A DNA stretch of 57,514 nt, filler included, from Sluysia triapertura (GCA_046118255.1; 4 parts of 4 records of this genome joined end to end with filler, not necessarily neighbours in it); one strand, 5' to 3'; counted from the first letter of the whole stretch, positions 13,327 through 54,610 are shown. Translations and numbers: made by a program. The notes: generated by a model from the letters alone, not told the origin.

Positions 13327-15540
13327 TGTGGTCGGTTAGCCGAGTTTTGTAATATATTTCTTGTAAAATTTTAAATTTGCAGTTTTATTAAAAGCCGTTT
13401 GATTTTTAAAAGTAAAGTCTACTTTAAATGTCGTAGAAACAAAACAACTTATTACAAGAAAATTATTGTTAATTTTATCGTTCAAAACATATCATTCGAT
13501 TATTAATATTAACTTTCTACAACATATTTTTTATCTTTATTATAATTGTTTTGATTTTATTTGTAAAATTAACAAAAATCTTAATATAGAATAAACGACA
13601 AATTTTTTATTAAATATAATATAATATTTATGGATAAATTTGAAATTGTTGGATATCCTCAACTTAATCTCCGGTGTATTATTTACTGCACTGAACGCTA
13701 CTCCGTGATTCCATGTGTCACATCTGTATTCTGAAAAGTATAGTACGATAAAATTATGAATTAAATATAAACGATTAAAATTTACCCAATGTGTTGTCAT
13801 AACACGAATTTTACGAATAAAATATTTTGTGGAGTTGTATTGAGATGTTTGTTGGCCAATATTAAGGTATGATCAAATTGAAAGATAATCAATAGTTCAT
13901 GACGTGCCAGACATAAAATGATCGGTTTTCCAGACTATCCGCTGCTTTAAACCTGATGCGGTAGTCTTTTTAATTAATTGTCTCAGCATATCACGGCATT
14001 CAACATTTAGAAGCAGCCAAGGTATGAATAGACATTCTTCGTACATGATGGTAAACCAAAAATGTGAATATTTCACGTCATAATCGAATAATTCATTAGT
14101 TAAATTTTCTTCATCAGATTTATTGGTTAATCTTACGTATTGACTCCACAATTTAATCGACAAACCCTTTAAACCAGTCGTTAGAAAAAGGTAAAGATAA
14201 ACAATTTGAGTAAACAAAATTGATCTTTGTGATGACGATTTGTGTACGATTTATGTACGACTGAAAGACATAAATCGTTTAGTAGTTATTTCGTGCACGA
14301 TTATTCGATTAATGAAATTAAAACCGGTAAATTTTAATTGATAGCGATCGCGAATTAATTTACAACGTTTTTGCATTAAATAATGATCAGTGATTATCTT
14401 GTATTCTCCAATACTACGCATTATTTGCGACATATTATCGTGTATAAATCTAGACAATTCTGCGTGAGACAATACTAGCGGAACTCGAGATACAGGTTGT
14501 TGACTTGATAAAATTAATTGCGATGACAATAACTGAATTTTTTGTAAATAATCATTTAAATTAAATTGATAACGAAATAAATACGTCTGCATCGTTCAAT
14601 TATTGGATACGAAAAGCGACACTGAATTCAAATCATTAAAACATAGTCCAAGCAAACATTCCAAACGGCAATCTGAAGTAGCAGATCTGGAACTACGTGC
14701 ATTATGTAAGTTCTGCAGTTCATTAAAAGTCAGCCGTTTTATATGGGACATTAAATCTAATAATTCATAAATTCGCATAACGATAATTGAAATTAATTCA
14801 ATGGGTTGCGATTTTCGATGATTACCAATTATTCCTGTGAATTCTGGTTGAATGTGAGCAAAGTGAATAGCATTGGATTGCTGATTGTGAGATTTAAGAA
14901 AAGCATGTTTAAAAAACTTTAACGATTTAGTTTGATCTTCTAATGACTTTATCAATATTTCACATTTTTCGGAATTTATTGTTGTTTACATTTCATCAGG
15001 TTCAACTGTAAGAACACATCCAATTAATCCAGGAGAAACATTCGTGATATAAAGTTATTATTTTTAATATTTTTCTAAATCGTCTCTGTTGATTTTTTTG
15101 TGTTCACTCATAAGTTATGATGTCATTCAACGCTGTTGTGTTTGAACAAATAATGACTACTTGTTTATTTTTATTTTTAGTAGTCTAAAATTTTTGATTT
15201 TTATTGCTTAATTCCAACGTGGTTGATCTTCCAATCAGTCCTTCAAACAGAAAATTCAATAATATCAGTCCTGGTTGGATGATAGTTATAAATAGAGTTG
15301 GCTGCCAAAAATAATGATTGCTGATGATTGGCCATCATCAGTGTTGACACGTTAATGAAAATTGTGATGAGTAGTGTCAACACTGGTGGTGGTAGCAACC
15401 AGTTTTGTGATTACAAAATATTTTAATAAATTGTTATTATTATTATTAACAAGAAAAATAAAACAATAAAAATCGCAAAAATTCTTGTCTTAATATTAAA
15501 CAAGATCTTACTTTCTTTCTAAATCCTTCTTGACATATAA
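13327..15540 (-). mobile_element. Double-hairpin family copy A, carrying a long orphan ORF
   Basis: Minus strand ends ...GACCACA at 13327. Hairpin 1 is 15332-15350/15374-15392; the CCAAT inverted repeat is 15226-15240/15269-15283. An (AAT)n tract and an AAGATCTTGT purine block lie upstream. The 5' boundary was not found. Confidence 0.7.
13540..15111 (-). pseudogene. Orphan ~520-codon reading frame with 7 internal stops and no frameshift
   Basis: Track ORFs 14596-14955, 14251-14592, 13897-14217 and 13540-13800 share one frame with the ATG at 15111. No recognisable domain. Confidence 0.75.
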
Positions 15541-17205
15541 AAATAAAAAAATGAAATGAAACTTGCTGACATTGTGTGAAAGAGCAACGATAGCAGGGTA
15601 CACTATGCTCGAGTTATCGTTGCTGCTTTGTTGTATAAAATTGAATTCTTTAAAACTGTATTGGATTTTCCTGAACTTATTATTGATTTCTAAGATATTA
15701 AAATGAATTAAAACTGTATTTGGGACTAAATTTCTGAGTAAGGATTGTTTTGAAAGAATTGATAAATTAACGATGTTTTATTAAAATTTATTAAACTTCC
15801 TTAGGTTGGGCACATAAACATGTATCAATCGAGTTGGTGACGAATGATATAAATTCCGGAACATTAGACAATGTAATATTGGTTATTTTTATACTTTTAT
15901 TCTTGTTCTATAATAAAGAGTTATCAAATTTCCACGTTCTAATGTTTCTAAAATTTAGTTTTGTTTTTAAAGGCACTAAGCCTATTTTGTTTCATAATTT
16001 ATTAAATCGCCTAATGTTTAAAGGTTTAACTTGTTTTGATAATTTAACATTTAAGTTACATCCAAAAATAAATAAAATTTATAATAGTTCCAAGTCCTCA
16101 AAACTACTTATATAACCTATTACCTTTTTATTCGGTTCAAGATCTCTCAATTCAGCTTAATTTTTTAACAATATCCTTAAATGGTTGTGTATCAATTAAG
16201 CTAGCGTAAATTCTTAATTCTACTTAAGTTGCATCCTTCTTCTCATTAGAAATTTTCGCTCTGACTATTAAATTTTTGAATGCATAAGCAAATTTGTAAC
16301 CTGTTTCATTTGGTTTTTGTTTCTAATGTTAACATTCTTGCATAATACTTTACCAATGCTATTCAATGCAATTTCCTCTGTGAATGCATTTATGAATCCA
16401 TTTCAATCTTGCTTATGTGTTTTATCGATTTCCTTGTGTCTCAATTTCCACTCCGGTTAGATAATTTTGGATTTCTTAATTTTCTCTATTGGCTTCGGCT
16501 GCACTGCTATAGTCAAATAAGAAATCACAAAGTTCCTTCTCCGTGCAGTTTAATTTTCGCATGACTGGAATTATAACCGAGATTTTATGTTATAAGTAAA
16601 GTGCATCATGCAATGTATGAACTTATTCTTTTTTAACGCGTTGTCTCTTTCTTGTCCTAAGAATTCTGATATTTTCATTATTATCTATTCTAAAATATTC
16701 TAAGTTTTCCTATTAATGCAGTGTAAACTTAGGTCAGTTGTTTAATAGCTTTTTTACAACTCAAAACGAAAAGTTTCAAACTTAAAGTTACAATTTAACT
16801 TATTAACTAAAGGTACATATAACTTATGTAACTTAAGTAATTTGCGGAGATAAGCCACAACTTACTTTAATATAGATTCACAAGATTCATGTGACTTAAA
16901 TCCTACAACTTTATAAAACTCAAGATCAGTGGCTTAAAATAATCTTTAAAAATCTTCAATAATCTTTAAAGTAAACTTCAAAAGTCTTTTAAAGCTCAAT
17001 TTAACAAAATCTAAATATTTTTTAGAGGTGGTTTTTCAAATTTGCCAATGTATGCCTGATATTTCCATTTATGATCGGTATCACAACGGCTTTTTGTCAT
17101 AATAATTTGCAATGGTGCATTTTAGGATCATGCTGACATATAGTTTGGTTTTATTATATGAATAATAATTTATAGTTAAATGTTCGTTACCAACCTTAAT
17201 AAAAA

Positions 17206-17305
17206 NNNNNNNNNNNNNNNNNNNNNNNNNNNNNNNNNNNNNNNNNNNNTTAATTAATTAANNNNNNNNNNNNNNNNNNNNNNNNNNNNNNNNNNNNNNN
17301 NNNNN
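17206..17305. other. Artificial contig linker
   Basis: 44 N + TTAATTAATTAA (stops in all six frames) + 44 N = 100 nt, identical to the other two gaps. Confidence 0.97.
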
Positions 17306-18669: not shown

Positions 18670-18881
18670 AGGTCCTAGTACGAACCTTATTAAAATCAAT
18701 TTTTAAAATTCTTTAAAAAAACTTCGTTAAAGGTTCGGTTTAGAACCTAATTAAAATCATTTTGTAATTCATAAAGGTTCAATTTAGGAACATTATTAAA
18801 TTCATTAAATTAAAGGTTCAATTTAGGACCTAATTAAAATATCAATATTCCAGGTTCGAAGTAAAAACCTTGTTAAAATCC
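18670..18881 (+). repeat. Minisatellite-like array of ~5 palindromic AGGTTC-N6/7-GAACCT-WWTTAAAATC units
   Basis: Units start near 18670, 18730, 18775, 18814 and 18852. Confidence 0.7.
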
Positions 18882-19749: not shown

Positions 19750-20030
19750 TCCCGAAATCGTCCAATTCTCTGCATTTTTGGAGGTCATCTTCTTTAAAAA
19801 TATCACCAAGTTGGTTCGCGCCATCTCAACTGGTCCTTCGGAACGAGGAGCGTCGTTGATGTCGAAATTATAATGTTTGAACCTGGCAAACCAAATCCCG
19901 AGTAGTTCTCTCAGTTATAGCGTTCTCTCCATACACGGCACAAATATCTTTGGCAGCTTCACTTGCTTTTTTGACCTCGATTAAAGGCGGAAAATAGGTG
20001 TCGAATATTTTATTTGTTTCGACTTGACAA
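19750..20030 (-). mobile_element. Mariner transposase N-terminal (HTH) remnant
   Basis: EAAKDICAVYGENAITERTTR/WFARFKHYNFDINDAPRSEGP matches the mariner pattern ICxVYG...WFxRFxxGxFDxxDxPRSGRP; frameshifted. Confidence 0.85.
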
Positions 20031-21475
20031 TCCATTTGACGGTTCTAAAAAAGATTTAAAAAATAATACAAGCAAAAACGATTACCTTAATCTTGTTTCT
20101 AACGGTAAATAACACTTCGTAAACATCAAAAAGTTTTTGTTGAACAAAGAAATTCATGTAACGGCAACAACCAAATAATACAAAATTAAGTCTAATATAA
20201 ATAAAATTTATAAATTGTAAAAAGACATTTTCTAAAATTTTGAATTTCGATTTAAAATAAGTAGGTTAATTTTTTTAACTAAAAATAAAAATATTTATTG
20301 ATTTTGTTTTATGTAAAATATTAAACAAATCAAATAATCTTTTTTCTTTTAATCTTTCTATTATGTTAAACAAAAAAAGTATTAATTTATTATTTATTAG
20401 CTAATCAAAATTTAATGCCAAATGTGTATTCATAAAATCAAACTTCAACAAAATCAAAATCGTGTTTTTTTAAAATTGTAATCATTATTATGTCAAAACG
20501 TGGCATTATATAAATTATAAAATTTTATTTTATTTTATTTATTTACTATTAATAATAATAATAATAATAAGTTACTCTTTGAAAGGTAGGTTTATTATTT
20601 CCAATAGTTTATAAATTTTAATTGAAATTATTATACCTGAAGGGCGTTTAGCTAGATAAGTCTTAGTACAAAATATTAAATAAAAATATACTTTTAAATT
20701 ATTTTCATTATTATGAAATAAAAAGTAAAAACTAAATCTAATATATTTGTGTACACATAATAACAGAATGCCCTTACAATTATGTTCCAAAATCACACCT
20801 AGATCGAGGGGAATGCACTTTTTTAGTGGCTTAACCATCCAACTAGCTCTAGCATCAGATGTTGTTGACACTTCTCCTATTTTTGAAACTTTACGCCATC
20901 CGCATAAGGTTTAATTGATGAAACAAAAATGTATAACTTAATCAAACATGGTTCGATTTCATTTTGCTGTTAAGGATAAACATAAATGAAATCTCCATAT
21001 TTGAATTTCAATTTAAAACTTTCTTCAAAAGGAATAATTATTGCAGATAATTATTGCAGATAAAGTGTGTATTTATATATTATGCAGCGCCTAATACTTC
21101 CATGAATTTGTCAATGTTTTATAATATACGTTCGATTTGTTCCCCAATGCGCTTTATTTAAATGCCTATTATCTAGTGGCAAAAGACATTTCACTTTTTC
21201 TTGCTTTTAGTACAATTTAATTGGATTTCCTTAACGAGAAATTTATAGTCATTTCGTAAGTCATCACTTGATATATTATCAATTACTTTTTCACCATCTT
21301 TATCAGATTCATTATCTTCGACATATTATCAATTTTGCAATGAATTATTTCGAATAAAAATAATCGGTAAGATTATGAATACTCGTTGAGTTTACATTTA
21401 TTTACTTCAAAGACATATAGAACTTAAATAATTAATAATTTCAGAGAAGTTTTAAAGTAAATTGAATTTGACATT

Positions 21476-23404
21476 TGTGGTGGCCAACCTATTACATAAA
21501 TAAATTTTATTAAATATATATCCTAAATATTTTATACATTTCATCAAAAACACCTTTTTACATAATTTTTTGTCAACATAACTTTTACTCCCAAAATCGA
21601 CAACTCCCATTTTCAAATTCATAACTAATACAAAAACAATTAAAATCATACTCGTTTTAACATCACATAAATTCTTTGTAAAATTCTTCACAGCCATTTA
21701 TATACTTTAATTCTTTTCACATTCACCAAAATAAACTCTCACTTGTTAAAACATTTCAAATCTTCAACCCTATAACATTTTAACCACAACTACATTCGAA
21801 TTTAACCATAAGATATCTTCAAACTAATTCAAACATTCCGAATTCATGACCTGCATCATTTGATTCTCAACAGCACATAAAGGATATCACTACTTAAACA
21901 TATCAAGAAAATAAATCACATTTTAGCATTGTATAACCACCTTCAGAACATACTAAAAGCTAGATTATAACTTATCTACTTTTCATACACTAAACTATAC
22001 CCTTATAACATCTTTAGCTAGAAACATTATCCCATTTTGAACATTAAAATGTATTCTAACACCCACATAAACATTCATAGTGTCTCAAAATATTTAACAC
22101 CTAAAAGTATTTTCGCTTGACATAAGCAAGTAGCATTAAAATTTACACTGAAAAGTTTTATGCATTATCATACAGCATCAGCGTCACTATCACACTTTGA
22201 AGTCTTATCCAGGACACTTAAAATTAGGCTGAAGTCTCATAAATTCACAATTCTTTCAATAATTTAGATATGTAAGAAAGGTTAAAGAATATAAGAAAAG
22301 CTCATGTTCAGATAAAATAAAGAAATAAAGAAAAGAAACATTGTTGTTATTATTATTATCACCATTTTTAATTTTTATTATTTTATCAAAATTATTAATT
22401 TGGTAACTATCACTACCAGTGGTGACTGAATTAATTTACAATGACAGTCAATGTCAACGCTGATAGTGGTTCACACATCAATTATTCAATTTTGACTCAA
22501 TCCTTTTATGCGTCTCCATTGGCCATCCAACCAGAACAACTATTACTGTTGTTATCTTATCAATGCTTCTGGTTGGATGACCAATCAATAATCACAGTAG
22601 CTAAAACTTTTTATTGTCAAATTCGTTTACAAGAAAATAATGTTTAAAAAGTGATGGAATTTAACAAATTTAATGATTATAACGATGATTATAATGATTA
22701 TAATGATTATAAAGCTAACCATTATAAAGATGCTGATTTTAAAGCTGACCATTGTAAAGATGATAATTATAAAGTTGATGATCATAAAATAAACGATTAT
22801 AAACATGATGATTACAAAGCTAACGAGCATAAAGATGATGATTATAAAGTTAACAATAACGAAGGTTAACAATAATAAAGGTGATGATTGTGAAGCTAAT
22901 AATAGCGAAGGTGATGTTTGTAAGGTTGACAATGACAGAGATGAAGTTTATGAAGTTAACTATAATAAAAACGACGATTTCCAAGTTTACAATGGTAAAG
23001 GTGACCATTACGAGACTAACGACTGTAAAAATAACGATTATGAAGCTAACGACAACAAAGATGATTATTACGAAGTTATTGTTAGCAAAGATGATGATTA
23101 CGAAGTTAACATGATTGCTTTTTGTCTATTCGCCACAAATAAATACGACTTATGTGTAAAGAATGGAAGTCATTGCTGTTACGCTCACACAGTTTGCGAT
23201 TTGAGGTCCACCAAGGAAAACAATTCAAGGTACAACTCTCATTCTTTTAGAATTACCGAACTAGTCAAGAGCTTTAGTTTATTGACAACGATTCATATAA
23301 CAATAACTTCATCATGAAATATCAAAAAGTAAATAATTCTCTTACTTATTGTGATAATATCATAAATTATGTTTGTTCTTCAGATAGCGGAACATGAAAC
23401 TACA
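21476..23404 (+). mobile_element. Double-hairpin family copy B
   Basis: Starts TGTGGTGG. The C/A-rich arm 21500-22250 aligns with 25100-25870. AAGCTCATGT block, (TTA)n, hairpin 1 at 22409-22426/22453-22470 (14/18), hairpin 2 at 22518-22536/22567-22585 (18/19). The right end (CTACA at 23404) is tentative. Confidence 0.72.
22654..23317 (+). pseudogene. Acidic D/N/K repeat protein with a C-terminal CCCH-like zinc finger; one frameshift near 22863
   Basis: The 30-nt unit AAAGATGATGATTATAAAGTTAACAATAAC (KDDDYKVNNN) repeats over ~22670-23112. CLFATNKYDLCVKNGSHCCYAHTVCDLR (C-x9-C-x6-C-x3-H plus DLR) follows. Confidence 0.6.
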
Positions 23405-23813
23405 TTGGAAACACATACAGAAGACAGTATTTAAAATTTTTATAAATAAAATTTTATGTGAATTTTATTTCTTCACGTAAGTTCTGAACAAAACTTTAAA
23501 GATTATTTTAAATTTGTAATTTTAAAAAATAAACTTTCAATAAAATTTAATGGATCCTGTGTTAATCTAAGAGTAAATAACTGTTTAAACCTAATTTTTG
23601 GTCAAATGAATGTAATGTTTAATTCAAAACTTATCAATCATCCTCCACCACAACAAAAATGGAGTCAGGAGTATAAATATATTAAAATTCAATGGAAAAA
23701 ATATTAAAAACCAAAAATATAAAAGAAAATTATTTAACTTAACAAACATCTGTCATTTTCAAATCATCCTTTCCAAACCACAATAAACAAAATTTTGAAC
23801 ATAAATTTTCAGC

Positions 23814-24019
23814 TTATTTGGTTGTCATCATGGTAACGAATTCTTCATAGTTTACTTGACCATCACCATCTGCATCTGCCTGTTAAATCATTTCGTCTAC
23901 ATTTTCACTTAAGTTTGTCATTACATGTCTTAAATGAACTGCCGATTTAAATTCATTAAACACATTTCGCCCAAAACTCGAAATGTTTCTCGAATTTCTT
24001 CCTCATTATCAGTATCTTT
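23814..24019 (-). pseudogene. CaM: Calmodulin C-lobe pseudogene fragment, intronless
   Basis: KDTDNEEEIRETFRV ... [42 protein letters not shown] matches calmodulin EF3-EF4. It has a frameshift, an in-frame deletion and an internal stop. Confidence 0.93.
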
Positions 24020-24020
24020 C

Positions 24021-24200
24021 AGGGTCCAGTTGTAATAAACATCTTATTACATGAAATATCACATTTACTAACACTATACATTTACTTTTCAGATCCATTA
24101 AAACATTTTTGCATTTCAAAACATTGTAAATTCACAATCTCATAACATTAAAATTATACTTACAATTTTAATTTAATTTACAATTTCACAACATTAGAAT
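24021..24200 (+). repeat. Fragment of the family C/A-rich arm abutting the calmodulin remnant
   Basis: CTTTTCAG.TCCA...TTTCAAAACATT...ACAATCTCATAACAT is shared with ~25388-25453 and more weakly with ~21712-21780. Confidence 0.6.
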
Positions 24201-25103
24201 CACTATTTACGTCCCAAACTAGCAAATATACATGTGGGAATATGTAGAGATAAGATAGAATAAAATAGAATTTTAACGTGAGTCCACCAATGTACTATGC
24301 TTAATTGATAAATGTGTAAAAATATGTTGTTTTTTTTACTTTTTCATACTATAGGTACTTCACTAATTTTAGAAATTTAAATCTTTCAAAGTGAATTTTA
24401 GGGGATCTATCTAAAATTGAAAAACATGAGGAGGGTTCTACGAGAGAAAAAAGTATGGGATCAGTAGCTTCTAAAATATCATATTGTGTTATTGGAATAC
24501 TTAAAATATTTAATTTAGATTCTCCTAAGTATGATCGGATGATACCATTAATGGATCAATGATGGAATTCCTCAGCAACTTTGGGCTTTAGTCCATTTAG
24601 CTCAATGGATAAAACAAGTTAGATTTTCAAATGAATTATTATATTTTTATGAGTTGTCATTATTATTTTTTAAAAAAATTGTGGCTAATCAGCATCACTT
24701 GATTCTTACGATAATTAATGTTACTTTAATAGTAAATAATTTCAAAAGTATTAAAATTAGGCTCCGTAAAAGTATCAAAAAGGAAATATCTTTATTCTGA
24801 ATTATCTATTACAATATTGTACTATTAATATACATAAATTAATTCATAAAATTATCTACAAATAAAAACAGACAACTTCCTTTAGATTCATTATAAGAAG
24901 TCGTTATTTATATATAAAAGATGTTCTATTATTAGATGTATTTTTGTTAAATATACAAAATATATGTTATTTTATGACATTAATAAATTTTTGCCGTTAT
25001 TAAAATTAAATTAGAAATTAAAAGTGTATACTTAATAATAAAAGCTTAAACGTAATTAATAATTAATATCTATTGATATTTTTTGTGTAAGTTAAATTTA
25101 TTT

Positions 25104-40352: not shown

Positions 40353-40656
40353 CAAGATAAGCTTATCTTAGTAAAGCAAACATGGATACAAAATATGTTA
40401 TGGCAAAATGTCAAGGCACTTGGATACAGAACAATGACTTAAAACATATTTTATTAAAATTAAAAGATTTACTGTTATTTTATAATGAAATTGGCAAATT
40501 AAAACAAATTATTAATAAATATGAAGTTAAAATATTATCATTTATATAATCAGTAGTATAATATTTTTCAAAACAACAAATTTGCAATATTTTTTTAATC
40601 ATGATAAATACATTTCACATATAGTATTAGTAAAATTTAAAAATCGATTTTGAAAT

Positions 40657-41409
40657 ATGGTCGTAAAAATCAAAAGAATATTAAAAGCTGCAAATAAAGA
40701 TTATAAAAAGTATCGCACAGAAGCAAAAAATATCATTAAAACAGATCCTAGTTACGTTTTATATTTACTAAGATATTTTTATAAATGGATTTCAGAAAAC
40801 GATGATTCAATGAAGGCAACATTTTCTATGTTAAGACTTAGTTTCATTATTGATGACGATTTTCGAAAAGCTATGACAGATTTAAATGCAATTATTAGTA
40901 AAACTCAGATAGAAATTATATGGTTATTATTAGATGTTAATTCTGAAGGAAAAATCGCAGTAAATAACATTTTTGAAAATATTAGGAGGTTAATCAAATT
41001 ATATAGTCCTAAAAGAGTTAAACTACAAGAAGTTTCATATAATTATTCAGTTGCTGATATCACTGATCTTGAATCAAAACCAACAGAATTTGATGGATAT
41101 TTTGAAGTAACGACAAAAATAATTCCTTACGCATCCATGGAGCAACATCATTGGCATTTTAAGTTTATATTGGGTCAGGATGTGGCTTTCAAAATCATTA
41201 AAAATATGATATTAGATAAACTTGAATATACAACTTTATTATTAAATATTTATATAGGTGAAAATATCAGAAGTCCAATAGAAGTTTTTTATTCTAGAAC
41301 TTTGAAAGATTATTGTGGTTTAGGGACTTCTTTAACATTTCCAAAACCAGTATTATTTTATTATGATTTTGGAGTAGGATTTGTTGACGATAGTATATTA
41401 ATGAATTAA
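40657..41409 (+). CDS. 250-aa uncharacterised protein with a degenerate EF-hand pair and a possible ubiquitin-like C-terminal domain
   Basis: Longest uninterrupted ORF in the window, with a normal amino-acid mix. DDFRKAMTDLNAIISKTQIEIIWLLLDVNSEGKI is EF-hand-like. RTLKDYC...VLFYYDF is reminiscent of ubiquitin-fold C-termini. Confidence 0.78.
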   Translation: MVVKIKRILKAANKDYKKYRTEAKNIIKTDPSYVLYLLRYFYKWISENDDSMKATFSMLRLSFIIDDDFRKAMTDLNAIISKTQIEIIWLLLDVNSEGKIAVNNIFENIRRLIKLYSPKRVKLQEVSYNYSVADITDLESKPTEFDGYFEVTTKIIPYASMEQHHWHFKFILGQDVAFKIIKNMILDKLEYTTLLLNIYIGENIRSPIEVFYSRTLKDYCGLGTSLTFPKPVLFYYDFGVGFVDDSILMN

Positions 41410-43451
41410 GCTGAATATTTTTATTATAATTATATATATTTATCAACACAAAATTCTGATTTAATAGTTTTGCTAATTAAATACAATCTGTTCATGCAAG
41501 AATCAGTAATTTTCATAGGCAAAAACATCTTAAAAATTCTTGTATTTCAGTGTGAATAATTTTTATAAAATACTAATATGAAATCATGATATTAAATATC
41601 TGATCATTTTCTGATTAAATACATGCGATCGTTATCTTACAGAATGCATTAAGTGTTCAAAATTTTAAAAGGATGTATTGAAGATGAGGTACATTATCAT
41701 TTTGAAATCTCAAATCTAAAATATATTGCAATAACAATATTCTTTAATAAGCCGCCCAATGAAAAATAAAAATTTTAATTTTAATTTCGTACTTCATATC
41801 TGTTTATACTGATCACTTTTACTTACATTTTGCCTGTTTTATTTGTTTTCATGCTTTGGATTTTGTTGAATTTTGCACTTAAAAAGTTTATTTTGTATTT
41901 CAAGATAATTTTATTCTGCACTTATCAAAATTTTCTTTTTTATTTATAATTAATATTAAGTTATCTGTTTAAAATCGGCATATTCATTTTGATAATATTT
42001 TAATTTTAATTGTTTTGTCTTTATTGGTTTTACATATTGAAGGAAAATTAATCAAATGTTAAAGTACGAAAATGTTTTTCTTAACTTACACTTGCGAGTG
42101 TAATTTCTTGAATTACATAAAATAAATATTGGGTTCACCTGTAATTGATGACCTAATCCCTCTCGAAGGCAGCTCTATGGTGTTAGGTTGTCATCACAAC
42201 CCTACAAAATAATTTAAAAATGACAAAAATTAATTAAAATCATGTAAGACGCTTTAAAGCTATTTATTAATCGGAAAAAATTATTTTCCAGAAAAATTAG
42301 CTTCTCAAAATACAATAAAAGCTTATATAATGTTCTAGAACATTCCACCGATTTTCATTGGCTGATGACTAGTACATAAACTATCATCAAAATAATGAAA
42401 ATCACCATTTTGGAAAAAAACAATTTTTCTTCAATTTCCTTCAGTTTACTGCGTGACTCGAGAAATTTAAAATCTTAGTAAACGTTCACAATTTACAGTC
42501 ATTCATCTATTTGGAGATTATCCTCTGGGCAACATTAATTCAATTTTTGGTAATTTATATATTTGTAAGGGCAATTTCAACTTTCGAAGTTGAAATCATA
42601 AAATACAGGCAAATTTTATATTAATTTGTAAAGTTTTTTCTAATTCCCCCCTATATTGAGGTTTAAAATAAAATAAACGGTTCTTTCAATTAGAAGAGTT
42701 TATTATCGTGTAATTAATATGGGTAATTTATTTCCAAAAACACTCTTATATGTTAAAAATGATTTGATATGTCTAATTAATTGCTATCGTCTCTTAAAAA
42801 CGCTTTATTAATTATAAAAGAAAAACTAATTTTATGGTTGAAACTATGTAGGTTGTTTTATTAATTTTACAAAAATCCAATTTAAACGAATTTCTTTAAA
42901 ATGTTAATCAAATATCTATATTAAGTTACTAGATCCAAATTAAAACGATATCCGACAAAATTTAAAGATTCGTTACAAACAATAATAAATGTTAACTCTG
43001 TTTATTTAAAAAATCAAAAATCTTTTAAATAAAATATTAAAATGTTAAACACGATAAAAGTTAAATAAAAATGATAATAATACGTAACAATAATTAATTT
43101 ACAATGATTATTAAATTTATTAATAATATGTACTCTAATATTTTTGTAAATATTTTAAAAGTGACTATGTTACAAAGTTATAAAAATTCTATTAAAATGA
43201 CCTTGAATAAATTCCCTTCCTTAACAATTAAAAACTAATGATTAAATATCGAAAAAGCCTTAAATTAAAGTTTGTATCAATCTTTTGTTTCCATTCCGAA
43301 CGATGATTCAAATCACTATAAATTTAAAAATTGTCGAATAAAAAGATCGTCTATAAGTGTTCTGTTGTTATTTGCAAATGCATGTATACTAGTGTTCGGA
43401 TAAAAAGGCCTAAAGTGCCATTTGGTAAAATTGACTATAATAAAATAAAAT

Positions 43452-43536
43452 CGTTAGAAGGGGCTGATAGCAATCGAACTGCGCAGCGATGGTCCCGGGT
43501 TCGATCCCCCGTCAGTCCATTTTACGAAGTCTAACA
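43452..43536 (+). ncRNA. Uninterrupted tRNA-Ala-like unit lacking a D arm (empty RLE target)
   Basis: Acceptor stem GGGCTGA (43461-67)/TCAGTCC (43512-18) with G3:U70 and A73. T arm with GGTTCGATCC, then TTTT. Only TAGCA lies between the acceptor strand and the anticodon-like arm. Bounded by GTTAGA...TCTAAC. Confidence 0.72.
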
Positions 43537-44698
43537 TTTTCATCGATTTTCATTGGGTGATGACTAGTACAAAACTAACATCAATACAATGAAAATTGCC
43601 ATTTGCATATCGCTTCTTGGATATTTACGGACAATATTCAATTCTACGCTTCAAGTCATTTGTTTTTTGATAAGTAGATATGTTTCACATAAGGAAATTA
43701 ATATCATAAAATCCACTTAAACTAATATTTTATTTAGTGAAGTGTAAGGTTTCCTGATATATTGAGGGGTAAAATACAGAGTAAGATTTTAGATTTAAAG
43801 TTAAATGCAGCCTACAGTTTTAACTTTAATATATTTTAATTGAATTCTACTTTTGATTCTAACATTTTCTTGTATCATAAGTGTTTTTGTATTATTTAAC
43901 TATTGTACTAAATATATTAAACTTTTTCTTAATTGAACGTTTTTTATTTCATTTACTGTGCAATAATTTGAATCCCAATTTTACTGAGTTTTTAGATCCT
44001 CTACTATTAAAATCGTTAAATAAAGTTACTTCTTTTAGGTAATCTTCTAACTTATTAGTTACAGAAAGGCCCTCTTTACGAAATAAGACATTAATTAATT
44101 AAAAATAATTAGCAAACTGAAAAAGAAAATGGCTTCATTAGCACAACAAAATTGAATTAAAAAAGTTAAAAATAGGAAAGTAAAGCTCAATAAAAATTGG
44201 CTAAAAATTTCCAGAGAAATTATTAGTAAAAGTTATAGAATTAAAAATTAAACACAAATAGAGAGTAGAAAACCAGATTCAATAGTCACAATTAGTATCT
44301 TGGTCAAAAATAATCTTCAGTAATGCTAACTCAATTTTTACAATCATATTCCATAGTCACAATTCGTATCGTAGTCAAAAAGAATCTTTAGTCATGCGAA
44401 ATAAAACTTTAAGAGTAAATTATGCAGCTATCAGTAAGAAACGAACCTTTAAATTAAACGCTACCATTCTTGAACTCAGAGAAGTTGATACTAAGCTAGT
44501 CGTAAGTGATCACAACTACAATCTAGTAATCTTCAACTAAATGCAAGTGAACATCAAGTCGCTCATGAAAAAAATTGATGTAAACCTAGTTATTGTTGCG
44601 TCTTTGATCCTTGCTAAATATTAAGCTCACTATTAAAGTCCTATTTAGTTAAAATCTTACTAGTTTCAATAGTTAGTATACTGAATTTAATTTTATTA

Positions 44699-44798
44699 NN
44701 NNNNNNNNNNNNNNNNNNNNNNNNNNNNNNNNNNNNNNNNNNTTAATTAATTAANNNNNNNNNNNNNNNNNNNNNNNNNNNNNNNNNNNNNNNNNNNN
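44699..44798. other. Artificial contig linker
   Basis: N44-TTAATTAATTAA-N44. Confidence 0.97.
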
Positions 44799-47700
44799 GA
44801 TTAATAATAGTAATAATAATAATGATAATAATAAGACCCAGACTTCAAATTTCTGAACACATTAATATTTCAGAACCAATTATTTAGAATATCATTAATT
44901 ATTGGTATAACTACTAAGTCCTTCTTTTGAATTTACTGTGCGTTTATCTCAGTAACCATAGAAATTTCGACAAATAAAATAGAAAAATATTACACTGAAT
45001 ATTTATTGAAAATTTCTACAAAAAATATAAATTTAAATGAAAGCCAATGAAAACAACTTTCCATACAAATTTGGATAAAAAGATGTAAAACTTATTTATT
45101 TAATAAAAATATTATTTTCCGATCATTCAAACAAACAAACAAACATCTCCAAACAAACAAAATCATCATCAAATCAAATCAAATCAAACTAATTCGAATG
45201 TGCATGATTATATTCGACTCATTCAAAAATAGAAAGAAATTAGAGTAACTGTATAATAAAATTCATACTAATCAACAGGAACTATTTTTGCCATAATTGT
45301 TATTGTTTTGAATACTTTCGTAGATCACGTGATTTTAGTGGTTGTATAATAATTATTTTAAAGTTACATAATACTTTCACATAATAAATTCTTAGAACCT
45401 TGGACACTGCAAATTATGCCGATTGTTTCTGTGTGTAAATTATGAAAATGTATTTATTCTATAATCCGCGACCTGTACATTTTAAATTGGATTCAAATTT
45501 GCCATTTTTAAAGTATATTTTTACATTTAAATTTCAACTTACGAATTACGACTTAGCAGCAGAACAGGAAAACAGACATACGAAAATATAAATGAATAAA
45601 TTTGTTTAAATTAAAATAACGAAGTACTACTTCTGATATCTGATAACTAATTATCACCCAACTAATTACCTGATAACTAATTATTGCCCAACTATATATA
45701 GTAATTTGTTTGAATATTATTGGTCGTTTCAAAATCTGTTTTATGTCCAATCCATGTGCAATATTTAATTTCTATTATTAAAATGAATATTACAGAGTTG
45801 TATTAATTAAGAAAGCATCCTATCATAAATGAAAGAAATTTACTGTTGGTCCACAGGATTCAGAAGATAATATTCTTAAAGAAGTTGGAGGTCAAATATG
45901 ATTTCTCAAATGCAAAGTAAATTATGTTATTGCATCTGTGTTTAAATATAATTCAATAATTTATCATGTGATTATAAAAGAAATTTATTCCTCTGCTTAA
46001 ATGTGAATTTAAAAGTCTAAAAAAGTTTAAGGGCATATCAATAACTTAAATAACACGAACTTAATATTTTTATTAAATTTTTTTAAGAAACGTTGGAATT
46101 TATGTCACTGTTTAAAATGACTAAAACCTAATATAAATAATGATTATCGTTTATTTTTCTTAATATATGACAATCGAAATGTTTGTTGTGAATTGCATGT
46201 TATTTTATTTATGAAGATCTAACTTCTCTCGTGCTTATTACTTTTTCTGCTTTGAAGAACCAATCCTTCACTATCACTGATATTTTTAGTCTGTGTTACT
46301 TTATAGGCAAGTCAAGAAAAACCACCTCTAAGTTCCTTAAATTTTATTAATACTAACAGTTTATATATATAAAAAATATTAATATATAAAGTGAATACTT
46401 TAGTTTATCGATAATCAGGGATAAAAACTCTTCCAATATTTTATTTCATTTGATTAAAACTTAATGAATAAATTATAATTTTAAGAAATGATTTTATCAC
46501 TATCGTATTAAGATAGCACAAAGATTTGATTATTTTAAGTACAATTTTATAGAGAAAAGATCCTATATAATTAAAACTTAAGAATCAAGTGAACAAGTTT
46601 ATGTCACGGTTCGATAACTCTGACAGACTGAGTTGGATTAATTGGCGTCCAGAATTTTCAAATCTATCAGAATCACTAGCAACAAATTTTTTTACTTCTT
46701 CGTTCTTTAATACACACAAAAATGTAATCAAATATTTATTATGTTATTTTTATACTTTATATTATATTATTTTGATTTTATTATTAGTATTATAGCACAT
46801 TTGGATCTTTCACATTTTTGACCGCAATTAAATTATAAAATGGTATTTTTATGCTGATTTTAATACAGTTACTATTTTCATGAAAAACAAAATTGAATTT
46901 AATCAATTTTAATTATAAATTCAACCTTCAATTTGTTTTAACTAATTAAAATTTCAAATTAATTTCATAAATAATAACATTTTACTTAAAATTAAATAAA
47001 ACTAAGAAAGTCGAAAATTTTTAAATTTAAAAATTAAAAACCGAAATAATTAATATATAAATTGCAAATATTTTTACGAATTGTTTTACAAATGCGCATA
47101 CATTACGAAAGTCCTGAATATCTTTTAGAAATAATAAAAAATTTGGAAACCTAGATGAATATTTCACTGACATAATAATCTATACAGAATCCACAGTGAT
47201 AATAAGCTAGGTGATTTTGTTTAAAGAAATTTATTGAATTTCAGTTCTCTAATTCCCAACTGATGGAAAATGTTTTGCAGAATACATGGCACTTCTAATG
47301 GCAATACAACTTTATTTGCAAAATGCTTTAATTTTATTCTTTGAGTGGACTATTTCAGTGGCATAATTTGAGACAAATGCAGTGGATCTCCGTATAATGC
47401 GACAGTTAGATACTGTGTTACAAGAATTGCAACTGAATACAAAGCGAACATAAACATACAAACATAGAACAATAAAAATAGTTTAATAGTTTAATTCGGG
47501 CATTCGCTGTATTTAAATATTCACAATAATATCAAATTATGGCTGATACTCGAAATAGGAACGTCGACTTAGATTCATTCAGATCAACTGGTATCAATAG
47601 AAGTGACCTTTTTCTGAAACTTCGAGTAATTCTACTAAATTACAGAAAGGTATGTAACATTTTTCCAGCCGTTTTACATCTACAATAGAAATACAGTTTT

Positions 47701-49150: not shown

Positions 49151-49659
49151 AAGAAGGATTTTTCTTTATTAACTTAAAATAAAGAATCAAGCATACGAAA
49201 GCCTTAAATTATTTAAAACAATATCTAAATTGTCTTTCTAAAAGTATTTAAGCTCATCTATTTGAGTAAAACGAAACTAATTTTGTGTATAATGATGTAT
49301 AAAACACCACTTTAGCTCTGTCGTTGTACTTGATTCAATAATAGAAGCAAAACATGCAAATTTGTATATGTTAAAGACACAATGATACTCATTAAAGTGT
49401 TGACGTAAACGTGGAAATTACAGAGCGGTATTCATGAATTAATGCTTATGTGAGGTGTACACTGATAAATCATAAACGACGTAACTACTTATCAAGTAAT
49501 GAACATTAAAATACTTTTGTTCAGATAGGCTTATACTGACTCCTGAAGTAATCTAATATTAATTACACGATCAGCCATCGTACTTTTCATACTTTACACT
49601 TTTCATAAACTTTTAAAATAACTCAAATTAGAATAGAACATAAAACTATTTACTTCAAT

Positions 49660-50882: not shown

Positions 50883-51654
50883 GTATAACATACGATTAAT
50901 AAATAAATGTTTGTCATTTGAGTACATTAGAACGAATTTCGTTCACGAAATCATTTGCAATATCTTTAGAGTATTAAGTTGTTTCATCAGCATAAACCAA
51001 CAGTAATAACGAAAATGTGACTTTGAGGTCAGATATTTATAAAAATAAAATAATAAATTATAAAATAAAATTTTATAATAAATTGTGTGAAATAAAAGCG
51101 AAATTATAACGAAGTTAAAATATTAATGAAAATTAATTATCATATATTATGATTAATGTATTTTATAGCAGGTATAAAAGTAATAATTGTTAGTGATAAT
51201 AAAGTAGTACTAATGATAGTAGAAAAGGATAAAACAGACTGTAATAAAGGTTTTAGAAGACGTATATGTTGTGTAATAATAAATGTTAAATGTAATTTCA
51301 TAACTGTTTAGTATGTATATCTCATAGAAGTGATTAAGTGTGTAATGGCCGATATATATTGGTATTAATTTTGAAATTAAACGTTATAAACTTAATATTA
51401 AGAAAAACGGACTTAAGGTCCTTACAGATGTAACTACGTTGTAAATTAAAAACGTTTAAGAAATTATTATTATTAAATTTTGTACTATAAATCATAAATT
51501 TAAAATTATTTAAGGAATAATAACACGTAACAAAGATGTTTTCAACTTTCAGACTAAAATTATGATAAAAGTAATATATTTTAAAGTCTATAGAGTGATC
51601 ATGCATCTCCGACAGCTCAAGTTCTGTAGAAATATAAAAAAGAAAATTATTATA

Positions 51655-51964
51655 ATAACCGACAAATAAGGCCTCTGGGGCTAAGAACTTCTCTTGAACT
51701 TGGTTCATTATCTTCTTTAACGGCTAAACCACAATCTGTTATTTCAACACCACTGTTGTCATCCAGCAGGACGTTCTCTGGTCTCAAGTCGCGATTTATA
51801 ACAACTTTACAATGAATAAAAACAATGGTTTCTAATAATTGGTACATGATAGTTCTTGTACGTTTCTCAGAAAGTGTAACACAAGGATTTAAATGATCAA
51901 ACAATTCAACTTTTGAATATGATTCAAAAACTAAAAACATATACATGTCGTTCTCATAGAAGTC
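51655..51964 (-). pseudogene. PHKG: Phosphorylase kinase gamma-like kinase fragment (subdomains IV-VIII), degraded
   Basis: DFYENDMYMFLVFE...ELFDHLNPCVTLSEKRTRTIMYQLLE...INRDLRPENVLLDD...ITDCGLA, then LAPE in the next frame. ELFDxLxxxVTLSEKxTRxIM is characteristic of PHKG. HRD is NRD and DFG is DCG. Confidence 0.85.
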
Positions 51965-52824
51965 ATTAGTATTCTGTTTGTAAAGAACAATTTTTATTAA
52001 ATTAATACTTCCTTTAAATAACTTAAACATAACATTAAAGAAATGCATTGAAGCATTAATTAAACATTTCAAACTTTCAATATGTATACTAATAAATGCA
52101 CATTTAGTATCATTGTCCATTAATTTGAACATCTTACACATATCATTTAATAATGACAACGATATTGTCTTCTGACGTCTATGAAGTACTCGCATGAGCA
52201 AATTCAATATCATCTGTCTAATATAAACTAACTGTTTAAAATAATAATACTCATATCAAATAACTGTTCACATGAACGATGTAGGTACTTTCGTCCTGCC
52301 ACAATGCTAGTTAACATCGTAATGCCAAAATAGCAACTAAAAACTGCGTCAGGAATTGTAACAATGACAGACTTGACTAAGGCCTTAGTTTCTAATTCAT
52401 AAATATCTAAAGTTATCTCAAAAAACTCAAACTTTTAAAACTTTTTATAAGAACATAACATATCTTATTTACGATATCTAACTTTCCATCATCAATTGTA
52501 TCTTCACTTTTGGCAGCTATTAAGAACTCAAATATGTTATTCTCTAACTGAGTGATGAAACGAGGAATTATTTCTTTGATATTTTATAGTGTTTTTTATT
52601 AATTCCAAATCATTTATATACCACTTAGTCCACAACTTCTCTTTATTAAATTTCAATGGAGCTAGCTGAGTTTGAGTACCATATTGCATCTTTATTACAC
52701 TCAACTTTAAGTTTTTTTATGCCAAGTTAGCTGGTGGATACTTAATCTTCTCAACATCAGGTAATGAATCTTTGTCTAAATCTTCATCATTTGAAACTAA
52801 ATCTATAACGTTTTTTGAAGACAT
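51965..52824 (-). pseudogene. Decayed orphan ORF divergent from the copy E core, running in frame into the PHKG fragment
   Basis: ATG near 52824 (MSSKNVIDLVSNDEDLDKDSLPDVEKIKYPP), with several stops and frameshifts. The track ORF 51650-52213 joins its 3' part to the kinase piece. Confidence 0.5.
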
Positions 52825-52899
52825 TTTGTAATCAATTTAATTTTTGAACTGCTGTCTTTGTTTTTAAACAATAACTAGGATGTAAATTTAAAAAGATTT

Positions 52900-54610
52900 T
52901 CAAAGTAAAATTATGTAGATTTATATTAAAAAGTGGATTTAAACATCAAGATGAATGTAGAATAATAAAACAAATAAATTTAAACGGTAAATGATAAAAA
53001 GAAAAAGCTCGTGTAATAGTTTCAAAAGATTTATGCATTTAAATTACATAATAATAATAACATTAATTTCACCATTTTTATTATCAGTAATATTGTTATT
53101 TTTTTTATTATCATCATTATTGCTGTTGTTTTTAATATTGTTATTACTATTAATTACTTTTATAAAGCTCAATTAAATTGAAAATTGTTGTCACCATCAT
53201 CAGTAGTGACATCTCATTTATTCCTGTCATTTACACCCCACTACTGATGATGGTTCGTAGTTCAAAGCAAAAATCATTTTATCATCGCCCAATCAGAGTC
53301 CAAATTATTCTCATTATTTTAAAAACACTCTGATTGGGCAGAATAGATAAAAATAGTCAAAAAACTAAAAATAGAGTGTCTAGAAAACAGAGACACAAAT
53401 AAAATTTTCAAGACACAATGTCAGACAAAAATTTTTGGCTTACAATTAAATTTCATAATAAAAATTGTATTATCTAGCAAGTTAATTGTTATATGATTAT
53501 AATTTATATGGAACAAAGGGATAAAGAATTTTCTTCACAATTACGAGATATTGATAGTGTAAAAATTGTTAATGAGTTTGCCATAATGTTGACAATCAAA
53601 GATTTTAAAATGCACAGTTTTGATCTATTAAACATGTTATCTAAAAAACTAGACAGTCTAGTATTATGTTCAAATAAATTTATTAGAAGAATTGAAATAA
53701 ATGATGTTCTCAATTGTAAATGATTTATCTATAAACGAACTTAACATGAATACTGAAAATGATTTAATTAGTTTGAATTTTTATAAATCAAGTTTTGACC
53801 TAACTATTGTATTACTCGGTAAAGCTCGATATTTTAGGATTAACTGGATCAAGCAAAGGTTTCAGAACAATTTCGATTTAACTACATCTCGTGTACTTCT
53901 TACAAACATAAGTAAATTTGAACTGTTGATTTCACATTTAAAACGGGAAAGTGTTAATTATTCAACCATTTTTGATAATTATTGTTTACATAACGGTAGT
54001 TTTAATCTCTACACCTTACATTCACACAGTGAGATCCAGTTTCGTTTCGAATTTCACGAATTATTCAAGTTTATAAAGAACGATTATGAACAACATTATG
54101 AACAATTGACTAATTTATTCGACAGTGCTAGTAAAGATCCTAATAAAAAGCTTATGAAATTTCAAGAGTTCATCTTCTTTACGAAAAGTGTACAATATTT
54201 ATCTCGCTACTTATATGATGGACATACGTTAACAACATCAGAGTTTGAAGATGTCAAAAACTATTTAATTGTGCAAAAAAATATTGGAACAAGCTAGTAA
54301 CAACTGTTTATGGTACCGACTTAAAGTTATGAATTCAATATTACAACCTACTTCTATCATTTATATAGTAGAAGAAAAATTAGTAACAATGTTTAGAGAT
54401 ATTCATAAACCTGTCCTAATGAAAATTAAGTTCCGTGTTTATGATACATCCGAACAAATTTTTAAGCAGTTCGGTATACCTGACTGTGCCAAAAAAGAAA
54501 ACGTGATCGTGATATATTTTTATGAAAGTATGTAAGTCTATGTTAGTTACAAAATTGTTAAATTATTTTATTATTTTTTAGTTATTGAACTTGGTTACTG
54601 GACTAATGAA
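52900..54610 (+). mobile_element. Double-hairpin family copy E (best preserved core)
   Basis: AAGCTCGTGT block at ~53005 and (AAT)/(TTA) tracts. Perfect 16-bp inverted repeat 53193-53208/53239-53254 and perfect 13-bp CCAAT inverted repeat 53287-53299/53327-53339. AACTTGGTTACTGGAC (~54588-54603) resembles the copy A end. Boundaries are approximate. Confidence 0.75.
53493..54535 (+). pseudogene. Orphan ~345-codon ORF broken by two frameshifts
   Basis: Three overlapping ORFs (53493-53723, 53701-54297, 54269-54535) tile the region directly downstream of the copy E hairpins. No recognisable domain. Confidence 0.65.

What the first reader, a model, noticed from the sequence alone, without database searches (positions are those of the whole stretch)
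13327..54610. Unrecognised dispersed element family: shared double-hairpin core, a different orphan ORF in each copy
Seen: at least six loci on all four contigs (A 13327-15540 minus, B 21476-23404, C 25104-26780, D ~26820-28250, F 36309-39141 minus, E ~52900-54610) share an ordered ~500-bp core. The order is a purine block with AAG(A/C)TCNTGT, an (AAT)n/(TTA)n tract, hairpin 1 (16-21-bp arms, 23-30-nt loop), hairpin 2 built on CCAAT boxes (13-19-bp arms, ~27-30-nt loop), then an ATG ~70-210 nt past the last CCAAT repeat. The core is weakest in F. The downstream ORFs are unrelated by eye: a 520-aa orphan, an acidic-repeat CCCH protein, 94-aa and 109-aa orphans, and a 345-aa orphan. No transposase, RT or Rep is visible. 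Inference: a non-autonomous gene-carrying element, for example giant solo LTRs with a variable internal ORF, or integrated segments of a multipartite virus or plasmid sharing a common region. Either would supply lineage-specific orphan genes with a ready-made promoter.
Basis: partly seen in the sequence, partly recalled or inferred. Interest (0 to 1): 0.85.

Follow-up and report, generated by a model that had tools for sequence, protein, structure and literature searches.

The report
Mobile promoter cassettes carrying unrelated genes
In an animal genome, the same hairpin-rich control sequence sits in front of five unrelated genes (four with no detected relatives, one ending in a fragment of a host gene), most likely a family of mobile cassettes that carries and reshuffles genes, though how it moves is not established.

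Summary
The core is real at five loci on three contigs: A, B, C and E firmly, D as a distant member. F has no detectable core.

Each core has a 10-nt motif AAG(A/C)TCNTGT, an AT tract and two inverted repeats of about 60-70 nt. The arms covary between copies. An ATG frame starts 69-212 nt downstream, on the same strand.

The five ORFs are unrelated. A, B and E are broken; C and D are intact. No homologue was found for A, D or E; C had only family scans, with no confident hit.

New here:
- B and C share a 0.8-kb non-coding C-rich arm that starts at TTGTGG.
- B has a candidate 9-bp inverted end.
- E has a second, divergent ORF.
- Two ORFs end in host fragments: Unkempt zinc finger 3 and an intronless phosphorylase-kinase piece.

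No transposase, gag-pol, Rep, primer-binding site, paired LTR, TSD or hammerhead was found for these loci.

Best reading: non-autonomous, gene-capturing cassettes with their own promoter, probably moved by an LTR-type retroelement (0.4). Rolling-circle or segmented-replicon origins stay open. Repbase/Dfam and the genome could not be searched.

The parts
15215..15545 (-). Core A: purine block, motif at 15509, (AAT)n tract, hairpin 1 (15332-15392), hairpin 2 (about 15227-15284)
13540..15111 (-). Cargo ORF A, 523 codons, 8 in-frame stops, no homologue found
   Evidence: 8 stops against 32-52 in the other five frames
13327..13345 (-). Candidate right end of A (...CCACA), abutting a non-LTR retrotransposon remnant; unproven
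21475..22110 (+). Left end TTGTGG and C-rich non-coding arm of B, 73-81% identical to the arm of C
22265..22590 (+). Core B: motif at 22298, hairpin 1 (22399-22476), hairpin 2 (22518-22585)
22654..23317 (+). Cargo ORF B: 15-nt-period acidic repeats, one frameshift near 22860, C-terminal Unkempt zinc finger 3 fragment (23117-23212)
23645..23653 (-). Candidate right end of B: inverted copy of its first 9 nt (TTGTGGTGG occurs 3 times in the window: B left, F left, here); no TSD
25103..25800 (+). Left end TTGTGG and C-rich non-coding arm of C
25890..26288 (+). Core C: motif at 25925, (AAT)n, hairpin 1 (26126-26203), hairpin 2 (26214-26285)
26439..26723 (+). Cargo ORF C, intact, 94 aa, no Pfam family at E 0.001
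27005..27697 (+). Core D (distant member), head-to-tail after C: motif at 27041, (ATT)n, hairpin 1 (27300-27365), hairpin 2 (27390-27456) and a second hairpin 2 (27627-27694)
27906..28235 (+). Cargo ORF D, intact, 109 aa, no credible homologue found
52960..53347 (+). Core E: motif at 53005, AT tract, perfect hairpin 1 (53193-53254) and hairpin 2 (53287-53339); flanked by divergent ORFs
53418..54535 (+). Cargo ORF E (right), about 370 codons in three frames with one stop, no homologue found for the 198-aa middle piece
51650..52830 (-). Divergent ORF remnant left of core E; its last 187 codons are open and contain an ungapped, truncated phosphorylase kinase gamma fragment (51680-51964)
23814..24164 (-). 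C-terminal half of calmodulin, decayed and without introns (23814-24025), next to a weak match to the B/C arm (24083-24164, + strand); link to the family uncertain
   Evidence: E 0.005; not above shuffles at low stringency
36309..39141 (-). Locus F: TTGTGG start with C-rich stretch and CCACA end, flanks 4/5 alike, but no core; at most a relative through its left end

Best explanation
A family of non-autonomous, gene-carrying mobile cassettes. Each copy has a conserved cis module (motif, AT tract, two inverted repeats with CCAAT boxes in both orientations) that acts as a promoter, at E in both directions, and probably also as a structured replication or packaging signal. The gene next to it is exchangeable. 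Most likely the cassettes are LTR-like units moved in trans by an LTR retrotransposon found elsewhere in the genome. On that view the left end TGTGG is the integrase-type end, and new cargo arises by template switching during reverse transcription, which fuses pieces of host mRNA to the cargo frame. SHOWN: common descent of five cores; covarying arms; an open frame after each core; unrelated cargo; host fragments at the C-terminus of two ORFs; a shared left end and arm in B and C. INFERRED: promoter activity, mobility itself, the RNA route and the identity of the helper.
For: Homology and geometry of the cores. Hairpin 2 keeps pairing while its sequence changes: 8 of 15 pairs changed on both sides, 0 of 500 shuffles as high, slid controls 1-2; arms are 87-89% alike within a copy and 59-65% between copies. 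Of 214 stop-free stretches of 50 aa or more, 5 hit Pfam at E 0.001: two transposase remnants outside the loci, one hydrophobic match below its cut-off, and the only two cellular domains, Unkempt and kinase, both in ORFs that read away from a core. The kinase piece aligns to human phosphorylase kinase gamma over 95 residues without a gap and is cut at both ends, as expected of a partial mRNA copy. Partial, in-frame, multi-gene chimeras are what LTR template switching gives in animals (PMC5131818, passages). The five TGTGG sites with the most C-rich sequel among 67 are B, C, F, 6762 and 4896, all TTGTGGYG, so this start marks a real class of ends. TG...CA as an LTR signature is recalled. Modules are shuffled: arm shared by B and C only, hairpin 2 doubled in D.
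Against: No primer-binding site shared after the cores, no second copy of a core in LTR position at high identity, no gag, pol or integrase remnant, no shared right part and no TSD. In PMC5131818 both LTRs flank the retrocopy; that is not seen here. A, D and E have no detectable left arm. Hairpin stability is similar on both strands, and mismatches do not favour one strand (4 sense against 9 antisense wobble pairs), so an RNA stage is not shown. The covariation test uses 6 related sequences and arms chosen for pairing, so it leans towards the structure. Intron loss cannot be proven without the host genes; intron positions in animal kinase and calmodulin genes are recalled.
Confidence: 0.4

Rival explanations
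1. Rolling-circle or single-stranded DNA replicon: Helentron-like elements, or integrated segments of a multipartite virus or plasmid. The core is an origin plus promoter (the 10-nt motif a nick site, the hairpins formed in ssDNA) and each segment carries one or two genes.
For: One fixed end with T before it in 5 of 5 starts, variable other end, no TSD, microsatellite tract and gene-fragment capture match what PMC4067079 (passages) reports for Helentrons. Head-to-tail C-D, divergent ORFs at E and strand-symmetric covarying stems fit a common region. Sharing of non-coding regulatory regions between non-autonomous viruses is described in plants (PMC5491270, abstract).
Against: No inverted copy of the left-end 12-mers above chance for B or C (0 and 2 hits against 1.0 and 3.4 expected), so no subTIR pair. 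No CTRR-with-hairpin end at 4 of 5 loci. No Rep, helicase or capsid. Loops are 19-32 nt and variable, not a short conserved nick loop (geminivirus/nanovirus feature recalled).
Confidence: 0.22
2. Scattered remains of one large DNA virus or giant transposon (Maverick-like or nudivirus-like) in which a repeated palindromic origin/enhancer precedes many different genes.
For: Explains unrelated intronless orphan ORFs behind homologous modules without needing one capture event per copy. Two further intact ORFs without Pfam family lie at 39804-41409 (no homologue for the 250-aa one).
Against: No viral or Maverick core gene in 57 kb. ORF A has no credible hit among 1.84 billion representatives. The flanks are low-density AT-rich DNA with ordinary transposon debris. 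The two intact ORFs have no core.
Confidence: 0.13
3. A host promoter family, perhaps derived long ago from a transposon, driving lineage-specific genes that are born and lost; the loci do not move as units.
For: Inverted CCAAT boxes could be plain transcription-factor sites (NF-Y label recalled). ORFs C and D have the same codon-position GC profile as the intact 250-aa ORF (0.40/0.26/0.20 and 0.36/0.26/0.15 against 0.34/0.28/0.16). No boundary is proven.
Against: Arms change in step rather than converging on one site sequence. B and C share 0.8 kb of non-coding arm with a common start. 3 of 5 cargo ORFs are broken. The divergent intact pair at 39804-41409 uses no such core.
Confidence: 0.15
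4. Penelope-like (Terminon-type) retroelement units: many unrelated ORFs, each tied to a shared structured non-coding module and co-mobilised in head-to-tail arrays.
For: Terminons carry varied accessory ORFs, form head-to-tail arrays and capture host genes (PMC6431247, section 8). CTGATGA occurs in hairpin 1 of A, D and E (seen in the sequence).
Against: No hammerhead core with a stem II: 0 of 6 CTGANGA...GAAA matches in the window has more than 1 closing pair. Rfam gave no match at the gathering threshold in the window and one chance match in 21400-28400. No telomeric repeats at the ends. The module precedes the ORF.
Confidence: 0.07
5. Chance resemblance of AT-rich, microsatellite-bearing DNA.
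For: True for F; D is only weakly alignable (3 of its 4 pairs with A, B, C, E not above shuffles).
Against: Leave-one-out E values down to 1e-14 on the hairpin block alone; hairpin scan 8 against 0-1; ORF placement.
Confidence: 0.02

Closest known systems
LTR-mediated retrocopies and non-autonomous LTR elements in animals (PMC5131818, passages read)
   Same: Partial host mRNA pieces fused in frame, chimeric ORFs, transcription supplied by the element.
   Different: There, retrocopies replace part of gag-pol between two LTRs. Here there are no paired LTRs, no PBS and no gag-pol remnant, and most of each cargo has no detected host source.
Giant Gypsy elements with accessory ORFs (Burro, Ogre; PMC6431247, passages read)
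   Same: Long terminal regions, variable accessory ORFs, domains borrowed from host pathways.
   Different: Those are autonomous 16-30 kb elements with gag-pol; these units are about 1.5-3.5 kb with no mobility gene.
Helentrons and their non-autonomous HINE/DINE-1 partners (PMC4067079, passages read)
   Same: No TSD, T at the boundary, microsatellite, palindromes, capture of gene fragments.
   Different: No subTIR pair at the ends, no short 3' stem-loop; hairpins are internal with 19-32 nt loops and precede a whole ORF.
Terminons (giant Penelope-like elements; PMC6431247 section 8 read)
   Same: Unrelated ORFs tied to a shared structured module, head-to-tail arrays.
   Different: No hammerhead ribozyme, no telomeric repeats, module upstream of the ORF.
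Non-autonomous grass pararetroviruses sharing regulatory regions (PMC5491270, abstract and one passage read); nanovirus/begomovirus common regions (recalled)
   Same: Different coding regions behind a shared non-coding control region.
   Different: Plant viruses with recognisable viral genes; none is found here.
KolobokP solo LTDRs and multimers (PMC9587614, passages read)
   Same: Repeat-internal-repeat arrays and solo units of a few hundred bp in invertebrates.
   Different: Kolobok ends are RR..YY with TSDs and a fixed transposase/His-Me cargo; here ends are TG-type, no TSD, variable cargo.

Membership tests
LTR retrotransposon (solo LTR or non-autonomous derivative); features recalled | TG...CA termini | tested here: inconclusive
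   TTGTGG starts at B and C; candidate CCACA ends for B (9-bp inverted match) and A; none found for C, D or E
LTR retrotransposon | 4-6 bp target-site duplication | tested here: not met
   No exact TSD; 2 of 23 end pairs with at least 4/5 identity against 3.6% background; B best 3/5, F 4/5. Old copies could have lost it.
LTR retrotransposon | Primer-binding site after the 5' LTR | tested here: not met
   No TGG word shared among the 250 nt after hairpin 2; C has no TGG there. Host tRNA set not available (0 tRNA genes).
LTR retrotransposon | Polypurine tract before the 3' LTR | tested here: inconclusive
   A purine-rich block ends 3-4 nt before TGT at 5 of 5 cores, but it is A-rich and interrupted, and an ORF rather than flank follows the core
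LTR retrotransposon | Two near-identical LTRs around gag-pol, or a helper with the same LTR | tested here: not met
   The closest pair, B and C, is 73-81% identical; no gag, protease, RT-RNaseH or integrase between or beside cores. A helper elsewhere in the genome could not be searched.
Helentron/HINE | 12-15 bp subterminal inverted repeats near both ends | tested here: not met
   0 hits for B and 2 for C against 1.0 and 3.4 in shuffles
Helentron/HINE | No TSD, T-rich boundary | tested here: met
   T precedes TGTGG at 5 of 5 starts; no TSD. Weak, non-specific.
Helitron (canonical); features recalled | 3' hairpin followed by CTRR | tested here: not met
   1 of 5 downstream regions (B) has a CTRR with an upstream stem of 6 bp or more; not shared
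Terminon / Penelope-like | Hammerhead ribozyme in the repeated module | tested here: not met
KolobokP | RR..YY termini, TSD, transposase plus His-Me nuclease | tested here: not met
   Candidate ends are TG/CA; no TSD; no such domains
Pack-TIR / Pack-MULE; features recalled | Long TIRs at both ends with TSD | tested here: not met
   Longest exact inverted end match 8-9 bp; no inverted core partner on contigs 1, 2 or 4
Multipartite circular virus or plasmid; features recalled | Rep or capsid segment sharing the common region | not testable with these tools
Multipartite circular virus or plasmid | Circle junctions or permuted integration | tested here: inconclusive
   C-D tandem fits; the common start of B and C argues for a fixed linear end; no reads
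Any catalogued Repbase/Dfam family | Nucleotide match to a consensus | not testable with these tools
   No repeat library or eukaryotic genome collection was available

The most novel reading that the evidence does not exclude
An undescribed animal cassette system. A very abundant, segmented replicon or gene library in which one structured origin-promoter module (two covarying inverted repeats plus a fixed 10-nt motif) is joined to hundreds or thousands of different single genes, swaps cargo, picks up host mRNA pieces, and is moved by machinery unlike known LTR, TIR, Helitron or Penelope elements. It would act as a factory for expressed orphan genes, about one cassette per 11 kb if this window is typical.
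Probability: 0.2. Interest if true: 0.92.

Novelty: new variant of a known kind. Interest (0 to 1): 0.66.

Why it matters
Orphan genes need both a reading frame and a promoter. Here five unrelated frames, two still intact and two ORFs ending in borrowed host domains, sit behind homologous control modules at a density of five in 57 kb. If the module is mobile, the family is a direct and countable route to lineage-specific genes: copy age, cargo source and expression can be read from one genome. It failed or was inconclusive on the specific structural tests for the element classes tried, so finding its helper could define a new non-autonomous element type or a new segmented replicon in animals. 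If it proves to be a catalogued LTR or Helentron family, the interest falls to that of a good example of gene capture.

Tried and rejected
Cargo homologues: word-based search for ORF A gave none. The profile-free search of 1.84 billion representatives gave 1 hit, a seven-fold repeat matching 39 residues, judged spurious. Exact look-up found 0 of 8 proteins. Atlas gave best score 0.81 for the E middle piece and nothing usable for D. PHROGs gave only the kinase and weak matches. The prokaryotic genome scan with D gave 3 matches of 24 residues, judged chance. ORF C, ORF B and the outer pieces of E had no large-database similarity search.

Structure: single-sequence models of D and E were poor (pLDDT 33.5 and 43.3); the viral fold search had 0 hits at E 0.001 and is uninformative.

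Host identity: two searches aimed at it found nothing; the organism remains unknown.

Ideas rejected:
- The B/C arm is coding: no frame is open or synonymous-biased.
- The purine block encodes a conserved peptide: the variable sites fall at codon position 2 (seen in the sequence).
- Hairpin 1 is complementary to the left end, as in DIRS-type internal regions: 1 site observed, 1.17 expected.
- Stops in ORF A are ultra-short introns: 2 of 8 spanned against 38% background (idea from PMC13644364, passages).
- B and C are the two LTRs of one element: no PBS or PPT in either orientation, and each has its own ORF.
- Hammerhead, snoRNA or other Rfam family.
- Further cores elsewhere in the window: none above chance level.

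The bacterial promoter scan was uninformative. Literature searches for a matching description (related) returned no paper describing this architecture; the library lacks most subscription papers and repeat databases, and no supplements were read.

Full report
Setting. The window is four contigs joined by N spacers at 17206-17305, 33708-33807 and 44699-44798. It has about 26% GC and a CpG observed/expected ratio of 1.01. A phosphorylase kinase gamma piece, an Unkempt zinc finger and a calmodulin piece point to an animal. The species was not identified. The rest is mostly AT-rich DNA with transposon debris.

Is the core real? Yes, at five loci. A scan for short inverted repeats found 8 above threshold with 15-40 nt loops against 0, 0, 0, 0 and 1 in five local shuffles; 7 of the 8 strongest lie in A, B, D and E. 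Profiles built from the hairpin block alone, leaving one locus out, recovered A at E 3.6e-11, B 3.6e-14, C 1.3e-10, E 0.013 and part of D 0.026. Pairwise, all 6 comparisons among A, B, C and E beat 300 of 300 shuffles. D was above chance only with C (2 of 300), and F in 0 of 5. A covariance model trained on A, B, C and E ranks D's first CCAAT hairpin above all other non-training sites (27.5 bits, rough E 0.0025); D's second copy does not stand out. Models including D found no further core. The motif AAG(A/C)TCNTGT lies 114-259 nt before hairpin 1 at A-E, with one other match in the window and 0.87 expected in total. F lacks motif, hairpins and homology, and is removed.

What is conserved is pairing as well as sequence. 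Arms are 13-24 bp around 19-32 nt loops, 46-68 nt in all. In hairpin 2, 8 of 15 pairs changed on both sides; none of 500 shuffles reached this, and slid registers gave 1-2. Hairpin 1 is less clean: 2 of 17 pairs in the automatic alignment. Arms within a copy are 87-89% alike, the same arm between copies 59-65%. These figures lean upward because arms were picked for pairing and the sample is 5-6 related sequences. Folding z-scores are about equal on both strands, so RNA, single-stranded DNA and cruciform or dimer-binding readings all remain. No Rfam family matches.

The ORFs are real and tied to the core. The fewest stops in 90 codons from an ATG within 250 nt of hairpin 2 are 1, 0, 0, 0 and 1 for A-E; 3.3% of window positions reach 0 and 9.6% reach at most 1, a background that includes these loci. 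ORF A has 8 stops in 523 codons against 32-52 in the other frames. C (94 aa) and D (109 aa) are intact and have gene-like codon-position GC. B has a frameshift; E is split over three frames. No pair of cargo regions is related. A has no credible relative in either protein collection; D and the middle of E gave nothing in the Atlas; C was only scanned against Pfam and PHROGs.

(1) B and C share about 0.8 kb upstream of the core, 73-81% identical in blocks with large indels. It is non-coding and strongly C-rich, and starts at TTGTGG, 822 and 821 nt before the motif. Of 67 TGTGG sites, the five followed by the strongest C skew are C, B, 6762, F and 4896, all TTGTGGYG. So this is a class of element ends, shared by F and by two starts without a core. 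A, D and E have no detectable arm. (2) TTGTGGTGG occurs three times: the starts of B and F, and inverted at 23653, 335 nt after B's stop. This makes B a candidate 2.18-kb unit with 9-bp inverted ends. It was noticed after the fact and has no TSD. (3) E is flanked by divergent ORFs; the left one starts about 175 nt from the motif. (4) Cargo carries host fragments. Among all 214 stop-free stretches of 50 aa or more, only two cellular domains were found. One is Unkempt zinc finger 3 at the end of ORF B. The other is 95 ungapped residues of phosphorylase kinase gamma, cut at both ends and with altered catalytic motifs, at the end of E's left ORF. A decayed, intron-free C-terminal half of calmodulin lies between B and C, beside a weak arm match; its link to the family is uncertain. 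(5) B, C and D lie in one orientation within 7 kb, and D follows C directly.

How it most likely works. The module is placed as a promoter: CCAAT boxes in both orientations, 69-212 nt before an ATG, with a second ORF on the other side at E. Its covarying stems suggest a second role in a single-stranded stage. The units carry no mobility gene, so they need a helper. I favour an LTR-type helper (0.4) because the ends are TG-type (signature recalled), the captured pieces are partial, intron-free and in frame, and the parts are shuffled between copies. Template switching produces such chimeras in animals (PMC5131818, passages). The case is incomplete: no PBS, no paired LTRs, no gag-pol, no shared right part and no TSD beyond chance (2 of 23 pairs at 4/5, background 3.6%). 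A rolling-circle or segmented-replicon origin (0.22) explains the missing TSD and right end and the tandem pair, but fails the Helentron subTIR test (features from PMC4067079, passages) and has no Rep. Debris of a large DNA virus (0.13), a static host promoter family (0.15) and Terminon-type units (0.07; no hammerhead; PMC6431247 section 8) are less likely.

Comparison with known systems. It works like gene-capturing non-autonomous elements (LTR retrocopy carriers, Pack-type elements, Helentron derivatives) and like viruses that share a control region (PMC5491270, abstract). It is not filed under any of them, because at least one defining feature was tested and not met for LTR elements, Helentrons, Helitrons, Terminons, KolobokP (PMC9587614, passages) and Pack-TIR/MULE elements. 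What differs from all is a whole, different, mostly orphan ORF behind each copy of an internal double-hairpin promoter. Four full-text searches aimed at this architecture found no description. That is weak evidence, since repeat databases, the source genome, viral contig collections and most subscription papers could not be searched and no supplements were read.

Verdict. The family is real, unclassified with the means at hand, and carries host-derived pieces. Its mobility and mechanism are inferred. Novelty: new variant of a known kind, with a 0.2 chance of being a new kind of cassette system. Interest 0.66.

Noticed in passing
window 4695-4896 (-) and 6762-6965 (+): Two related starts TTGTGGTGTCCCAG with C-rich sequels, 62% identical over 200 nt, pointing away from each other; same end type as B, C and F but no core.
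   Followed up: partly
window about 10100-13320 (-) and about 7150-8700 (+): Two decayed copies of a non-LTR retrotransposon (RVT_1 E 1.2e-7; R2/NeSL-like label recalled), 74% alike over 300 nt; one abuts the candidate right end of A, the other interrupts the 6762 element.
   Followed up: partly
window 39804-40352 (-) and 40657-41409 (+): Divergent pair of intact ORFs (182 aa with an N-terminal hydrophobic segment; 250 aa) with no Pfam family and, for the 250-aa one, no homologue; their 300-nt spacer has no core.
   Followed up: partly
window 37600-39000 (-) and 16000-16700 (-): Decayed ORF-like stretches upstream of F's AT tract and of core A; no Pfam match when read through.
   Followed up: partly
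window 9527-9586 and 9812-9871; 43473-43604; 42343-42410; 1788-1849: A small repeat family with a tRNA-like head (resemblance judged by eye; ARAGORN finds no tRNA), once as 60-nt inverted arms 225 nt apart, sharing a tail with three other sites.
   Followed up: no
window 19871-20044 (-), 55582-55755 (-), about 28300-28600 (+): DNA transposon remnants: mariner HTH_48 and DDE_1; a possible Tc1-like piece right of D, judged by eye.
   Followed up: no
window 29851-29963 / 32272-32384 and 31775-32222 / 47085-47196: 113-nt inverted arms 2.3 kb apart (88%) around a LINE-like fragment whose 3' part recurs on contig 4 (LINE label by eye).
   Followed up: no
window about 15580-15630 (-): An extra 10-bp inverted repeat with a loop of about 24 nt just upstream of A's purine block; not seen in other copies (read).
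   Followed up: no
window 56685-56755: 14-bp perfect inverted repeat with a 43-nt loop whose outer part resembles E's hairpin 2; not recovered by the models.
   Followed up: partly
window 26998-27243 (+): D's purine block and (ATT)n tract form an 81-codon open frame (basic start, hydrophobic body); an ATG at the same offset exists in B and C but their frames close early.
   Followed up: partly
window 51001-51410: C-rich stretch on the minus strand right after the kinase-bearing ORF, similar in skew to the arms but without a TTGTGG start.
   Followed up: no
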